Source of the DNA: Fistulifera solaris
Lineage: Eukaryota
NCBI GenBank assembly: GCA_030295235.1
Contig: AP026133.1
Coordinates: forward strand, 1,116,001-1,180,000
Direction: 5' to 3'
Length of the DNA stretch: 64,000 nucleotides
Position numbers and translations under genes: made by a program. The notes under the pieces are model-generated. The model saw nothing but the letters and a program-made list of their open reading frames with translations, was not told where the DNA came from and ran no database searches. Position 1 is the stretch's first letter. Each line of letters starts with the position of its first letter. Positions 31,951-40,902 of the stretch are shown piece by piece.

Positions 31951-32433
31951 GGTGAAATAATGTGTGTGTAATTAATTGATTACAGTACTTGAAGAAAGAT
32001 GAATAGCAAAGGATGCAATTGAGACACCTTTGTTGCATCCAAAAAGACGCGGTCGCGGTCGCGGTCGCGGTCGGTTGGCCGATTTCGATTTTAGTAGCAA
32101 GGTAAGGAGTAAGGATTTGCAATTAAGTCAGAGGTACCAGGTATTGCTCTACCCTTCTTGGACTATGTAAATCCCTTTCACACAATAAGTGATAGTTCCG
32201 CATCATGCGTACACATTACACTCTAATAGTGAATCATGTACCGGTACCTGTCAGACATCGTTCGAATCGTCCCACACGTAACTGGCGTCAATCGTCGAAA
32301 ATTCGATCACGAGACAAAACGCAGCGCGAAGTAAAAAAAAGTGGCATGACAATCAACAAGAAATACAAACGATTCAAATTCATTTCTCTTTCTTCAAACA
32401 ATCTTTGATTCGAAACGATAAGTTGAGTCAAAG

Positions 32434-35108
32434 ATGGCGAACAATATGGAATCCCTTCTCATGGGAGGAAGTGACGACGATTCGGATTCCGACGTCGATG
32501 TCAAAGAAGGATCGACCGTCGCTGCCGCTGTCCGTGTGCAAGCGGCTCCTCCGCCCGTTGCTTCCCCTCCTCCGGTTCCTGCTCCTGTGGATCTTGCAAA
32601 TAGACCAAAAACTGCATCTGGCGGCTCGCAGAGTGGGGTTTCGAATCCTAATAGCAATCACGGAAGCTTGCAGCCACCGAGCGGCGGACCTTCTTCCGAT
32701 TTATCAATGCGATTGAAGAGTTTGTATAGCCCTGCCGCTAAACCGGTGCAAGCAGCACGACCAGGACAGTCTCTTGGTCAACAAATGCCTCCTACTTCGG
32801 TTCCGCAGCCGCCGCAGCTACAACAGCAGCAGCGAATGCCTGCAGCTGTCCCCATGCAACATCAAGTTATCCCTCCTCCCATACAACAACAGCATCAACA
32901 ACAACCTGCTCCAAGAGTACCGAATCAGATGCATACATCTCGTCCACAAAATGATCCTTTTGCCCCTACACCAGTTGCCGAAATCATGCAAAAGTTCAGA
33001 ACTACAATACACAGCATCGCCTGGGGCCAGTGCCCAGTCCGCACTCGACGGCCACGTCTCGATCGCTCTCTTCCGTTCCTCCACAGCAGCAGCAACAACC
33101 ACAACGACAACAGCAGCCTTCTGTATCATCGGTTGCAGGAAGCACGGCCAGCACGTACAATGCCCAAAAGGAAATGGAACTGAAAAAGCAAAAACAGCGA
33201 TTCGTACTTTTCACGCAGAATCTTATTAAGATTCTGAAAGTACAAGACCCTGGTCTTCATGAACGTGTCGGGGTCGTCATTAAAGACTGCACTGCTCGTA
33301 ATAAGCGGCAAGAACCCGGCTACGAAAGTGTCACTGTTAGTATGCAACGACGTCTTCGAGAAATTGTAAACGACAACTATTGGAAGCAAGCGCAAAATGC
33401 GACTATTGCTAGCTTTGCCAAAGCGAAGGAGAAACAACAACAACAACAACAACAGCAGCAGCAACAACAACAACAACCACAGCCAACACAGCAAGTTCCT
33501 CCGCCAGGTCGTACTGCAATAGCTGGCTCCGCAGCTCCGACTGCTTCAATTCAACAACTGAACACGGGGCTGCCTCAGCAGGGTGCAAGAACTATCGCTC
33601 AAATGACACCAGAGGAGCACGCGGCCCATGAAAGGCGCCAGAAGGAGACATTTCAGATTTTCTTGAAGATTCTTGTTAAAGTTCTCAAAGACAAGGATCC
33701 ACCCACGTTCAATCGCGTCAACACCATCATGAGAGAATGTGCAGAGCGCAACAAGCGCCACGAACCGGGATACGAAAGTGTGACGGCCAGTGTCAAGGCG
33801 CGACTCAAGGCGGTTGTTAGTAATGCATATATTGAAGAAGCCAAACGACTCACTGCAAAGTATCAGGCACAGCAGCGAAATCAGCAACAACAAGCACAAA
33901 CGCAGCCGCCACAGCGACCCGGCGTGGCGCCAGCGACAAAGGCCCAGCCAACGTCGCAAACGGCAGCGAGCCAGACTGCAAAGGCCAAACGCCCTAGTTT
34001 ATCCGCGACCGGTACTTCAACGAAAGCGACAGCTGCTGCGGCCAAGACGGCGGCAGGCTCGATGGGAAAGGCCGCCGGTAAGGCGGCAACCAAACGTCCA
34101 AAGTCGACACCGCCTGCTCGGAAACCTAGTGTCACCAGCGCTTCATCCGAGAAAGCGAACGTTACTGGTGCCAGTCCTACGAATGCCAGTCTTGTTGAGC
34201 CACAAGCCGTTCCTGTCGTTCGTGACTATAGCGAATTCATGGAAATGGTCCATCACGCAGTCAATTTTGATTGGACGACAGCAGGCCTGGCATTAGGGAC
34301 GGACTCTCTAGCAGAATTGCCGCAAGATCAGCAAAGTTTGTTGATTGATGTTAAACCGATACAGCCTCCTTTAGCGTCGGTCTTTCCGTGTCCGGGGTGG
34401 GGGGAACGCAACATTGTATCCGTGAGAAATGCATGGGCGCGAGTTCATTATTGCGAAGATACGAAGTTGGGAAGCTTCAATCGTTTGACTACCACTCCTA
34501 CCGAGGTAGATCCTTCTACCGAATGGAAGAGCGAGGAGCATGCAGAATTCAATGAACCTGTTTTGGCTGCTTTATCAGAAGGAGTGCAACAGTATTTGAC
34601 GACTGTGCTGGAAAAGGCGGTTCTATGTGCTCGTCAACGTCACAATGTTGACGGTATAAGATTATGGCATCAGCAAGTGATGGCAGCAGACGAAAAGGAA
34701 GCTAATCCGTTGTCGCTACGACTAGGATGTGACGTCTCTCGTCAATGGGCCCAAGAGCAGGGAAATGCAGCCATGACCGTGAAGCGCATGGAAGAGGCGC
34801 TTGAACGGCAGAGTGGTATTCCTAGCTATGAGCGCGAGCTGACAACCGAGACCTTGTTAGATAGCACCAGCATGACAGAGTTGAGTTTGAGGCCAGCTCT
34901 TTCGTCTAAGGCGATCGATATGGTAGATTATCACGCCAAACGAAGCTTTGAGATTTATGGTGGAAAGGATGCCGGCGAGCCCCCCTTGGGCCGTGTTCCT
35001 AAGCGAGCGAAGATCGTAGTCAGTGATTTTCTTGTCGCCCAACATTTGGGGACACCGCGTCGCTGTCACCGGGCCGCAATGGTTTCTTTTGCTACAGCAT
35101 TTTTCTAA
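32434..35108 (+). CDS. TAF4-like transcription factor: Q/P-rich, two RST-like helical repeats, C-terminal histone-fold-like region
   Basis: PolyQ tract; duplicated unit F..F...L.K.LK..DP....RV....C..RNKR.EPGYESVT; LSEGVQQYLTTVLEKAVLCARQR and KIVVSDFL resemble TAF4 conserved regions. Frameshift near 32990-33030. Confidence 0.6.
33435..33478 (+). repeat. CAA/CAG microsatellite encoding polyglutamine
   Basis: (CAA)n(CAG)n(CAA)n run, visible directly. Confidence 0.9.
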
Positions 35109-35988: not shown

Positions 35989-37256
35989 ATGTTTCGCATG
36001 AAGCTGTTGGTGTTAATTGCATCTGTTGCTTTTGGCAATGGCTTTGCTTTTGGATTTTTGACGACGTCACAAAGCAGATGGATTTTTGCACAGCATCATC
36101 ATCGAAAGTCACCATCACAATGTGTCTCAAACTGCGCAAGTCGCAAGAACAGTGCTCGTAGATTAGGGAAAGATATAAAAGAAGCTAAAGATGAAGACTT
36201 TCCCGGATACATGCAAATGATAACTCGCGAAGAAATGCTGATGCAATTTCTTTCTGGTTCTTTATGGACACTCCCTAACACATTCGAGATGTTCCTCAAC
36301 CAGTGCACCATTCAGTCTTTTCTGTTCCTTGTCAAGTCGTTAAGAGATCCACAGACCGTCATGTGGCTGGAAGAATTCACCCAACCTGATACGCGAGTGA
36401 CGGTAATACCGGAACCTTCCTTTCCGCAAGAGAATAACCCTGGCTCCTTTTGCAGCAAGTTGCTGGTGTATCATGGTCTAGCTGCTCTCAATACCACGCG
36501 TTTCCCGACGTGGGACTCCTATTTTGTACAATTATTGGAGCAGCCCGTTCAGTCTTATGTGGTGGAATCAGACTTGCCACACGTCCCCAATTATCACCTG
36601 GACATGGAACCCGCTCGCTTGTGTTCGCGCATCATCAGTGTCCGAGAACAGATTGCACGAGAGTTTGTCAAAGATCTCGACGCAATTAGTAGCATGGGTT
36701 GGCGTATGCTGAAATCGTACTGGGAAGAGGTTCGATCACCTGCTGCGATGGTGTAGACGATCGCGCGGCCAAAGTTGCGCGAGAGAGGCGACAACAAAAC
36801 TTTCTTTTCCTTGAAATCAATCCCAACGAAGAGAGTGACTACCAGCCGTCACCTTTACGAAAGGGCAACTTTGATCTCTTGTGCAACTTAGTTACGCAAG
36901 AAAGCATTCATCGAATTCTCAACAACCAGCCGGGCAATCTGTTTCTTCGTCGGTTTTATGTCGACCGGATTCACTATTTCGTAGGCAACCAACAGTACGG
37001 ACGGGCAGACTCGTTTCTGAAAGAGCTTTTACTGCATGTACCTACATTTGAAGACGCATCTGAAGGAACTGTCGCACTCACGGACCCTACTAGTTTGGCT
37101 GAAACGATTCTAAAGATACGAGACGATGTTGTGAGAGAATGGAAGTCGCTGGCGGTAGCCGTACCTGACAAGCACATGATGATTCGAAGGCTGCAACTTG
37201 ATCTTATGTTTGGCCATGTAGCGAGTGAAACGGACGACGCGCAAAGTATGCAATAG
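35989..37256 (+). CDS. Putative plastid protein with two RbcX-like domains
   Basis: Hydrophobic leader followed by a basic/Ser-rich transit-like region. Two internal repeats end in RIISVREQIAREF and TILKIRDDVVREW. Frameshift near 36740. Confidence 0.65.
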
Positions 37257-37336: not shown

Positions 37337-37484
37337 GAGCCGATGCTGGAAGAGTCTCAGGGTATGGCGTTTGAGTCTTCTTTAAAGTATTTGTTTTGCT
37401 AAATTCGAGAGAGCCGATACTGGAAGAGTCTCAGGGTATGGAGTTTGAGTCTTCTTTAAAGTATTTGTTTTGCCGAAGTCGAGA
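37337..37484. repeat. Tandem duplication, 2 x 74 bp
   Basis: GAGCCGAT(G/A)CTGGAAGAGTCTCAGGGTATGG...TTTAAAGTATTTGTTTTGC...TCGAGA starts at both 37337 and 37411. Confidence 0.9.
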
Positions 37485-39415: not shown

Positions 39416-40005
39416 TTTGATCTTTGCGGCGGAGGTAACGAAAGTGTTGATTGATGGCAATTGTGAATTGTGAGACGATGTTGTGAGCGATGCGTTCTTC
39501 CTCGCAAACTTGCTTCCGTTATGACCGCATGCAACGAAGAGACATTCCTTAAATAATGAGAAAGATACGCTTTTTCGATATGTACGACATTTTGTACGAG
39601 GGGCTACGTGGGTCCCGGATTTTCTTTGGGTCACGAAAGTCATACCACCGTGCAACGTATTTACAAGTACTCTCATCCAAAGTGTACTTTCGACTTATCT
39701 ACGACTGGTTTTCAGTCATGAATTCTTTTTTACTCGGCGACAATGCTGCCTACCAATCGCTCGTTTAACAAAATATTGTGATTGTATTTGTCGTTGCTGC
39801 AATGCAATAATCTTTCGCAGCGTTTGAATTACACGTCATTCTATTTTACGTCGAAGAGCCTTGCTAAACGGTTTCTTCGTGTTTATTTACTATAGACTAA
39901 AGTGTTGTCTGTTTTTCGTCAAGACTGCATTTCAGTCACGAATCATGAGGCACCGACAACGATGATCATTGATCATTGATCGGGTACAATGATCACTGAT
40001 CACTA

Positions 40006-40902
40006 ATGACAATGATGTATTTCACGTATTTATCTTCGACAACACTGCCGAAAAGAGCCTCCGCTATGCGATTGTTACCTTTTCTATCACGTACAGCAAT
40101 TACCTTCCTGCGAGGAGGCGCCAACAATAGTACAATGAGCACACAAGAAGTAACCTCGGTGCCAATCGCCCCTGCGTCATTTCTACTACTAGACTGTTTG
40201 CCTCCTCTCGACAAGACAATGTATCAACGGCGAATCATCCTTGTTCGTCACGGAGAAACAGACTGGAACAAACGAGGTCTTATGCAGGGAGGGGGATTTG
40301 ACATTGAATTGAACGAAAACGGCAAACGACAAGCGAGTCGGGTAGCACTCGAGTTGGTGAATATCATGGCGAACCGAGAAACGGTTATATTAGCGTCGTC
40401 GCATCTTCAACGCGCTGTACAGACCGCTGATGTTTTGCAGGAGATCTGGAAAGCGCAACATGAGCACTTGGATATTGCTCGAATCACCATGAATGAATTC
40501 GGTGAAATGCGATTTGGTAATTTGGAAGGGAATGCGCTGCGAGGACCCGAGGCCACAGACGAGAGTAAGGCGCACTTTCGTGACAACAGTTACAAAATGA
40601 CACAAGACAAACACGTGTGTTGGCCGGGAGGTGGAGAGTCAACAGCTGATGTGGAAACGAGAGGTTTGCAGGGACTCAACGCCCTTACTAAGAAGTATCC
40701 AGACGCTGACTTGCTCGTCATTGTAGCACACGGACGGTTCAACAAAATACTCCTGGCGTCGCTCCTTTACGGAAATGTGCTACAATACTCAGATATTGAA
40801 CAAGGAAACACGTGTATCAACGTAATCGACCAGAGAAAGGATGGGAAGTACGACCAAATCGTTCTAAATTACTTAGGACACCTTCGAAGTGAGTTCGGTT
40901 GA
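40006..40902 (+). CDS. Histidine phosphatase superfamily (phosphoglycerate mutase-like) protein
   Basis: LVRHGETDWN, SSHLQRAVQTA, EMRFGNLEG, PGGGES and VAHG. The start codon is uncertain (40006, 40066 or later). Confidence 0.9.
   Translation: MTMMYFTYLSSTTLPKRASAMRLLPFLSRTAITFLRGGANNSTMSTQEVTSVPIAPASFLLLDCLPPLDKTMYQRRIILVRHGETDWNKRGLMQGGGFDIELNENGKRQASRVALELVNIMANRETVILASSHLQRAVQTADVLQEIWKAQHEHLDIARITMNEFGEMRFGNLEGNALRGPEATDESKAHFRDNSYKMTQDKHVCWPGGGESTADVETRGLQGLNALTKKYPDADLLVIVAHGRFNKILLASLLYGNVLQYSDIEQGNTCINVIDQRKDGKYDQIVLNYLGHLRSEFG

What the first reader, a model, noticed from the sequence alone, without database searches (positions are those of the whole stretch)
35989..37256. Tandem RbcX-like domains in a putative plastid protein from a red-Rubisco lineage
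Seen in sequence: two related units, FLNQCTIQSFLFLVKSLRDPQTVMWLEEF...DSYFVQLL...LCSRIISVREQIA and LVTQESIHRIL...FLRRF...DSFLKELL...LAETILKIRDDVV. From memory they parallel cyanobacterial RbcX (YLTYQAVR..L.E.NP..AIWL.EF...YLE.L....L..RILTVRE.LA). Established: RbcX is a homodimeric assembly chaperone for green form IB Rubisco, whereas diatoms use red form ID Rubisco, which is not known to need it. Inference: a single-chain pseudo-dimeric RbcX-fold chaperone, acting on red Rubisco, the pyrenoid or another client.
Basis: inference. Interest (0 to 1): 0.7.

Follow-up and report, generated by a model that had tools for sequence, protein, structure and literature searches.

The report
Diatom single-chain double RbcX-fold protein
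This diatom gene encodes a chloroplast-addressed protein made of two fused copies of the fold of RbcX, the helper that assembles Rubisco in cyanobacteria and plants, which makes it a testable candidate for the unidentified helpers that algae with red-type Rubisco are thought to need.

Summary
Observation confirmed, with one correction. The gene (35989-37256) lies in two frames in the assembly; a same-haplotype read contig has one extra base at 36749/50, so it is one intron-free 422-aa gene. The two units are homologous (profile probability 97%, score 68 vs at most 33 in 100 shuffles). Each has the RbcX fold: unit 1's top five of 48,161 PDB chains are all RbcX (Z 7.1-8.4, next 4.8); unit 2's top four are RbcX (Z 5.9-6.7). 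Covariation supports an internal RbcX-like pseudo-dimer. The family has two old paralog clades; every named member is a diatom (Phaeodactylum B5Y4J4, B5Y4R2). RbcX's corner arginine is kept in unit 1 only (190 vs 15 of 191); cleft Tyr20 is Gln in both units. It is an RbcX-fold homolog, not a canonical RbcX. Binding to red RbcL is untested (complex predictor not available). Best guess: a form ID RbcL assembly chaperone (about 0.42). Reviews say red-Rubisco organisms lack RbcX homologs. This scan noted the same family twice before, once in this genome and once in another.

The parts
35989..37256 (+). Single-exon nuclear gene, 422 aa once the 1-bp assembly deletion is allowed for; clade A member of a diatom tandem RbcX-fold family
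35989..36048 (+). Signal-peptide-like hydrophobic start ending at a small residue plus Phe (first half of a diatom bipartite plastid presequence; cleavage site approximate)
   Evidence: sequence; crude rule met here and in 104 of 182 relatives vs 7 in shuffles
36049..36282 (+). Transit-peptide-like Ser/Arg/Lys/His-rich stretch and spacer; fast-evolving (dN/dS 0.57 between homeologs over 36100-36270)
36283..36735 (+). RbcX-fold unit 1 (helices 1-2, variable loop, invariant His-Gly motif, helix 3, added beta-hairpin, long helix 4/5); dN/dS 0.15
36628..36630 (+). Arg aligned with the corner Arg of RbcX helix 4 (model residue 124); R in 190 of 191 non-redundant relatives
36749..36750 (+). Frame break in the assembly; a same-haplotype read contig has one more G here
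   Evidence: (tables 4 and 8)
36736..36848 (+). Inter-unit linker (about 38 aa, variable, partly helical), ending before the conserved SPLRKGNFD motif
36849..37208 (+). RbcX-fold unit 2 (same helices, HFxG motif and beta-hairpin; corner Arg position free, R in 15 of 191); dN/dS 0.20
37185..37187 (+). Arg (model residue 308) in the last helix of unit 2; strongest covarying partner of Glu130 of unit 1 (36646-36648)
37209..37256 (+). Acidic C-terminal tail and stop; most relatives end in Phe-[Glu/Gln/Asp] (128 of 191), this copy ends Met-Gln

Best explanation
A nuclear-encoded, plastid-imported protein in which an ancestral RbcX-derived homodimer became one chain by gene duplication and fusion. 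Shown by computation: two homologous RbcX-fold units that pack on each other with swapped C-terminal helices, as RbcX subunits do. Inferred: the arch keeps a central peptide cleft and one conserved corner. It most likely acts as an assembly chaperone for the plastid-encoded form ID RbcL: the cleft takes the RbcL tail (here D-I-S-F-N-Y where green RbcL has E-I-K-F-E-F), the unit-1 corner Arg contacts the N-domain of the neighbouring RbcL, and RbcS later displaces it. Fusion let the halves specialise, so the second corner decayed and the cleft changed (Tyr20 to Gln) to suit the red tail. The conserved C-terminal Phe-Glu/Gln may be a self-ligand for the cleft (speculative).
For: Fold: unit 1 top 5 of 48,161 chains all RbcX, Z 8.4-7.1, rmsd 4.6-5.5 A over 98-104 residues, next unrelated 4.8; Foldseek top 4 RbcX, probability 0.75-0.95; unit 2 top 4 RbcX, Z 6.7-5.9, rmsd 3.2-4.5 A over 99-110 residues. 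Sequence: the family profile's two best PDB hits are RbcX, E 0.02 and 0.044, with two collinear stretches; 26 of 90 members hit PF02341 at E<=1, more than any other family; one unit-1 fragment, P0355, passes the curated cut-off (29.5 vs 27 bits; 1 of 12 tested). Pseudo-dimer: pLDDT 91.6, pTM 0.90; 14 of the top 30 inter-unit couplings involve a swapped last helix vs 24.7% by chance and 3-7 in 8 within-cluster shuffles; top pair E130-R308 z 10.9. Corner Arg R in 190 of 191 in unit 1 vs 15 of 191 in unit 2; the RbcX corner Arg is needed for assembly (R118A inactive; PMC4549274; its mapping to my residue rests and recalled numbering). Plastid-type presequence 104 of 182. Red RbcL tails keep I/V-x-F-x-Y at the motif's positions. 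Form ID Rubiscos fail to assemble in other hosts, taken to mean unknown chaperones are needed (PMC9833100). Purifying selection, dN/dS 0.15-0.20.
Against: Structural Z-scores are modest and rmsd is 3-5.5 A; Foldseek E-values are 0.4 or worse; the window protein scores 12-13 bits against a 27-bit Pfam cut-off. Tyr20 is Gln in both units (168 and 173 of 191) and Gln29 aligns with Leu (162 of 191; weak register). Both units carry a beta-hairpin before helix 4, near the corner, that RbcX lacks and that could block RbcL. Red RbcS has a hairpin that replaces RbcX in form IC Rubisco (PMC9833100), and this organism's RbcS has the long C-terminus (139 aa). Every named member is a diatom, whereas form ID Rubisco is far wider; my searches listed only top hits and are weak for distant lineages. 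The RbcL tail's aromatic residues are conserved for Rubisco's own structure, so they are weak support. The covariation regions were chosen after seeing the first list.
Confidence: 0.42

Rival explanations
1. An RbcX-fold peptide clamp that has changed client: it chaperones or scaffolds some other plastid protein complex in diatoms, not Rubisco.
For: Changed cleft residues and added hairpins and His-Gly/HFxG motifs in both units; red RbcS can do RbcX's job; only diatoms among named members; not named among Rubisco partners in the passages read of the T. pseudonana pyrenoid study, where RbcX occurs 0 times in the main text (its tables not seen).
Against: The corner Arg that contacts RbcL in RbcX is near-invariant in unit 1 and free in unit 2, which fits a kept partner contact; the only clients of RbcX proteins in the papers read are RbcL.
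Confidence: 0.3
2. It binds assembled Rubisco through the RbcL tail but works in pyrenoid organisation or regulation (partitioning, holding the tail open, competing with the activase CbbX) rather than in assembly.
For: Some relatives carry disordered inserts with repeats that match the pyrenoid protein family DPC2 (P0161: E 1.5e-15, 57.9 bits, under the 70-bit cut-off); a YL-acidic-x-L pattern is in 8 of 225 relatives vs 1.3 in shuffles. A carboxysome role for cyanobacterial RbcX is recalled, not read.
Against: The inserts are rare and absent from the window protein; DPC2 matches fall in low-complexity loops.
Confidence: 0.22
3. The likeness to RbcX is convergent: a common helical bundle with chance motif matches.
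For: Z under about 13 can be a common arrangement for helical proteins (tool note); Foldseek E-values not significant; Atlas feature scores 0.85-0.86, below the 0.9 lead threshold.
Against: All five RbcX representatives stand 2.3 Z units or more above the first unrelated chain for unit 1; sequence profile, Pfam and structure all rank RbcX first; both units match along RbcX's full length.
Confidence: 0.06

Closest known systems
RbcX (Pfam PF02341): cyanobacterial RbcX (PDB 2peo, 3q20; complex 3rg6) and plant/green-algal RbcX-I and RbcX-II (4gr6, 4gr2, 5bs2)
   Same: Helix order and fold in each unit; swapped last helix between the two halves; L-T/N motif in helix 1, conserved Trp in helix 2, R-x-x-S/T-V-R-E motif with the corner Arg in unit 1; predicted plastid location.
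   Different: Two unequal units in one chain instead of a homodimer of about 15 kDa subunits; Tyr20 is Gln in both units; corner Arg only in unit 1; added loop, His-Gly/HFxG motif and beta-hairpin; conserved Phe-Glu/Gln C-terminus; found with form ID, not form IB, Rubisco; below the Pfam cut-off; no binding or function shown.
DPC2 (Diatom pyrenoid component 2, PF25195)
   Same: Uncharacterised diatom plastid protein; a few relatives carry inserts that match its repeats.
   Different: The match lies in optional disordered inserts, under the curated cut-off; the window protein has none; the folded core is unrelated.
Red-type RbcS betaE-betaF hairpin (built-in RbcX substitute, as reviewed in PMC9833100)
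   Same: Addresses the same step, stabilising RbcL during assembly of red Rubisco.
   Different: It is part of RbcS, not a separate chaperone; shown sufficient for bacterial form IC, while form ID still fails to assemble in other hosts.

Membership tests
RbcX (PF02341) | Subunit fold: four-helix bundle plus a last helix | tested here: met
   Unit 1: top 5 of 48,161 chains are RbcX, Z 7.1-8.4, rmsd 4.6-5.5 A, 98-104 aligned. Unit 2: top 4, Z 5.9-6.7, rmsd 3.2-4.5 A, 99-110 aligned. Predicted models.
RbcX (PF02341) | Score over the curated Pfam cut-off (27 bits) | tested here: not met
   Window pieces 12-13 bits for unit 1, no hit for unit 2; best E 1e-4 among 90 full-length members; one unit-1 fragment passes at 29.5 bits.
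RbcX (PF02341) | Homodimer of about 15 kDa subunits | tested here: not met
   One chain holds two unequal units; 20 hits under 172 aa all match 41-73% identical over a third of the query or less and look like gene fragments.
RbcX (PF02341) | Arch-shaped pairing with the last helix packing on the other subunit's bundle | tested here: met
   Indirect: pTM 0.90 for the two-unit chain; 14 of top 30 inter-unit couplings on swapped helices vs 3-7 in 8 shuffles. Coordinates could not be inspected.
RbcX (PF02341) | Hydrophobic cleft pockets (Tyr17/Tyr20; Leu57/Phe60 in CrRbcX-IIa) | tested here: not met
   First position Phe/Leu (kept); second position Gln in 168 of 191 (unit 1) and 173 of 191 (unit 2). 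Unit-2 register is by motif.
RbcX (PF02341) | Corner Arg of helix 4 (R118 in CrRbcX-IIa) | tested here: met
   R in 190 of 191 in unit 1; only 15 of 191 in unit 2. Met for one half.
RbcX (PF02341) | Corner Gln at the end of helix 1 (Q29; Q69 in CrRbcX-IIa) | tested here: inconclusive
   Aligns with Leu (162 of 191), but that stretch scores -0.1 bits and has a gap nearby.
RbcX (PF02341) | Binds the RbcL C-terminal motif and supports RbcL8 assembly | not testable with these tools
   Complex predictor not available; needs biochemistry.
RbcX (PF02341) | Occurs with form IB Rubisco | tested here: not met
   The organism's plastid RbcL is 67-94% identical to the 74 red-type RbcL aligned, with tail D-I-S-F-N-Y.
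RbcX (PF02341) | Located where RbcL is made (plastid stroma) | tested here: inconclusive
   Bipartite-like presequence in 104 of 182 vs 7 in shuffles by a crude rule; no experimental localisation found.
DPC2 (PF25195) | Score over the curated cut-off (70 bits) | tested here: not met
   No hit in the window protein; best relative 57.9 bits in an insert.

The most novel reading that the evidence does not exclude
This family is a dedicated assembly chaperone of diatom form ID Rubisco, an RbcX kept or regained after the switch to red rbcLS and turned into an asymmetric single chain; supplying it (one or both paralogs) is part of what is missing when diatom Rubisco fails to assemble in E. coli or plant chloroplasts.
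Probability: 0.35. Interest if true: 0.9.

Novelty: new variant of a known kind. Interest (0 to 1): 0.7.

Why it matters
[quoted passage not shown] A conserved, plastid-addressed RbcX-fold family across diatoms contradicts the first statement at the level of fold and gives a concrete candidate for the second, with named genes in a genetically tractable species (Phaeodactylum B5Y4J4, B5Y4R2). If it serves another client, it would instead be an RbcX fold with a non-Rubisco job, and a natural single-chain version of the dimer.

Tried and rejected
Intron or pseudogene at the frame break: rejected. Complex prediction with the RbcL tail: tool not available, nothing folded; no verdict. Sequencing runs: no RNA holder listed; X1 covers intergenic DNA evenly, so no expression evidence for this copy; some relatives come from transcriptome sources. 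Canonical RbcX in the own genome: no match, control Synechococcus positive. PF02341 and the clade-B profile in 50 bacterial genomes with red-type RbcL (50 of 80 loci given): 0 of 50 each; the profile search had no positive control. Viral contigs with P0453: nothing; viral structures: no match under E 0.09. Metagenome scan with the alignment was not accepted and not repeated. Foldseek on the two-unit model: no E<=0.001, RbcX chains scattered from rank 4. Atlas: no model held; feature hits under 0.9. Single-unit relatives: only apparent fragments. T33-E213 coupling persists in shuffles, so treated as a clade artefact. DPC2/PYCO1-like inserts as a family trait: rare, rejected as defining. Literature: nine searches listed no paper whose title or shown abstract describes an RbcX-like protein in diatoms; the six Phaeodactylum accessions occur in 0 papers; accession strings and 'RbcX' were absent from supplements of PMC10288592 (3 files), PMC8670125, PMC8252717 and PMC7972479 (12 of 16 searched), but those tables may use gene ids I did not have. 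Supplements of the T. pseudonana pyrenoid preprint (Rubisco co-IP table) were not seen and could bear on the claim.

Full report
Observation. They lie in two reading frames in the assembly: a 255-aa piece from the ATG at 35989 and a 187-aa piece ending at the stop at 37254-37256. Laying three public runs on the region showed two haplotypes in run X1. The contig that matches the window with no other letters over 36633-36855 has one extra G behind 36749; the other haplotype lacks 5 bases there, which is also in frame relative to the restored copy. A search of the own genome found the homeolog on contig C7 with one open frame of 436 codons across this point, and a more distant pair on C36 and C37. 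The C7 copy has its own one-base shift in the presequence, which database relatives P0003 and P0245 lack. I conclude that the window holds one intron-free gene of 422 aa and that the break is an assembly deletion. Between the homeologs dN/dS is 0.15 for unit 1, 0.20 for unit 2 and 0.57 for the presequence region, so the gene is under purifying selection.

The repeat is real. Profiles of the two units from a 90-row alignment align with probability 97.3% and score 67.9; a reversed profile scores 12.8 and 100 block shuffles at most 33.3. Both units share features that RbcX lacks: a His-Gly or HFxG segment after helix 2 and a beta-hairpin before helix 4. The duplication therefore followed those additions (inference).

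Relation to RbcX. By sequence the link is weak but consistent. The window's unit 1 hits PF02341 at E 0.09-0.24 and nothing else; unit 2 has no hit. Of 90 members, 26 hit PF02341 at E<=1, more than any of 38 families. The family profile's two best hits among 177,635 PDB sequences are RbcX, E 0.02 and 0.044, with helix 1-2 and helix 4 matched in order. One unit-1 fragment passes the curated cut-off (1 of 12). By structure the link is clearer. The two-unit core folds with pLDDT 91.6 and pTM 0.90. Against 48,161 representative chains the top four are RbcX, aligned on unit 2 (Z 6.7-5.9, rmsd 3.2-4.5 A, 99-110 residues; next 5.2). Unit 1 folded alone (pLDDT 88.5) has five RbcX chains on top (Z 8.4-7.1, rmsd 4.6-5.5 A, 98-104 residues) and the first unrelated chain at 4.8; Foldseek ranks four RbcX chains first, though with E 0.4-1.0. 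These Z values are within the range the tool calls middling for helical proteins, so the argument rests on rank, gap and agreement with the sequence hits. The Atlas's nearest named clusters were also RbcX, at 0.85-0.86, a lead only.

Pseudo-dimer. In RbcX, helices 1-4 form a bundle that takes helix 5 of the other subunit (PMC4549274, parts 1-4 of 5 read). I could not inspect coordinates, so I used covariation on 191 non-redundant members. The strongest inter-unit coupling is Glu130 (unit 1, helix 4) with Arg308 (unit 2, last helix), z 10.9, and 14 of the top 30 couplings involve a last helix against the other unit, versus 24.7% by chance (p 0.007) and 3-7 in 8 shuffles within clusters of relatives. 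The regions were defined after seeing the first list, one shuffle reached z 9.9 on a clade-driven pair, and covariation cannot itself tell intra- from intermolecular contact; the pTM favours intramolecular.

Functional residues. RbcX binds the RbcL tail EIKFEF(E/D) in its cleft and touches the neighbouring RbcL N-domain with corner residues; R118A abolishes assembly in CrRbcX-IIa. Using the alignment to Anabaena RbcX (residue numbers Y17, Y20, Q29 also in PDB titles; the equivalence of R118 with this helix-4 Arg is recalled), the corner Arg is kept in 190 of 191 unit-1 sequences but only 15 of 191 unit-2 sequences. This asymmetry is what a fused dimer using one corner would show (inference). 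Against a simple RbcX role, Tyr20 is Gln in both units (168 and 173 of 191), and Gln29 aligns with Leu (162 of 191, weak register). The organism's plastid RbcL ends W-K-D-I-S-F-N-Y-T, keeping the hydrophobic positions of the motif, as do nearly all 79 red-type RbcL printed; these positions also serve Rubisco's own structure. Most relatives end in Phe-[Glu/Gln/Asp] after an acidic tail (128 of 191; background 0.35% per position); its role is unexplained and the window copy ends Met-Gln.

Location and range. A crude rule for a diatom bipartite presequence is met by the window protein and by 104 of 182 relatives starting with Met, against a mean of 7 (maximum 16) in 200 shuffles. A FastTree tree of 119 members splits into clades of 69 and 50 (support 0.96 and 1.0, midpoint root), each holding pennate and centric diatoms (Stephanopyxis; one of 24 named rows dropped for short coverage). 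The window gene is in clade A. Phaeodactylum has one of each among the clusters looked up: B5Y4J4 (A) and B5Y4R2 (B). Every member that carried an organism name was a diatom, but most carry none and only top hits were listed (150 of 231; 120 of 343; 115 of 115), so absence from red algae and haptophytes is not shown. No canonical RbcX was found in the own genome, nor RbcX or this family in 50 bacterial genomes with red-type RbcL.

Mechanism. My best reading (0.42) is an assembly chaperone for form ID RbcL working like RbcX: cleft on the tail, unit-1 corner on the neighbouring N-domain, release by RbcS. Fold, pairing and predicted location are supported by computation; the client is inferred. 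Rivals are another plastid client (0.30), a pyrenoid or regulatory role on assembled Rubisco (0.22; a few relatives have DPC2-like inserts) and convergence (0.06). The complex predictor was not available, so binding is untested.

What is known. [quoted passage not shown] Passages of the T. pseudonana pyrenoid preprint contain no mention of RbcX (supplements not seen), nor does PMC13159521; PMC12636532 discusses green RbcX only. Nine searches and four supplement searches found no description of this family; the library lacks most subscription journals. The protein fails several RbcX membership features (cut-off, homodimer, Tyr20, form IB context), so I do not file it as an RbcX; it is an RbcX-fold homolog and a new variant of that kind. 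Two earlier notes of this scan reached the same reading on other DNA; they came after my own reading was set and are not independent evidence.

Verdict. Real feature, RbcX ancestry about 0.9, Rubisco-related role about 0.6, assembly chaperone about 0.4. Interest 0.7, because it contradicts a stated absence and makes an open question testable with named genes.

Noticed in passing
L002 about 790 (G000:C7, presequence region): The homeolog has its own one-base shift in a T run of the transit-peptide region; database relatives P0003 and P0245 are intact there, so this assembly probably carries many single-base deletions that make genes look broken.
   Followed up: partly
window 37337-37484: A 74-bp unit repeated twice, 93% alike, just downstream of the gene; the other haplotype in run X1 skips 199 bases here.
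   Followed up: no
P0161, P0112, P0117, P0121, P0350, P0025, P0038, P0176, P0015: Some family members carry disordered inserts with short repeats (S-Y-L-D-x-L type matching DPC2; R-S-L-L-x-A-R-L; K-K-S-Y-S type, one weakly matching PYCO1); they may be mobile plastid or pyrenoid motifs.
   Followed up: partly
family C-termini; window 37209-37253: Conserved terminal Phe-[Glu/Gln/Asp] after an acidic tail in 128 of 191 members; unexplained.
   Followed up: partly
   Followed up: no
L003 581-2061, L004 549-1974: The clade B pair has two introns inside unit 1 and a basic Gly-rich hairpin loop (K-R-R-G-x-G-H-G-G-W) absent from clade A.
   Followed up: partly
window 32422-35108 (+): Large Gln/Pro-rich gene upstream with two similar helical blocks and no Pfam hit at E 0.01; also appears in two frames.
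   Followed up: no
window 40000-40902 (+): Histidine phosphatase superfamily gene (PF00300, E 4e-36).
   Followed up: no
G000:C60 (L006, L007): The plastid contig holds rbcL twice, in opposite orientations about 115 kb apart, perhaps an over-assembled circular genome.
   Followed up: no
L008, L009, L020: RbcL 83-94% identical to the diatom's in records titled as Clostridia, Flavobacterium and Roseivirga bins, likely plastid contamination of those bins.
   Followed up: no
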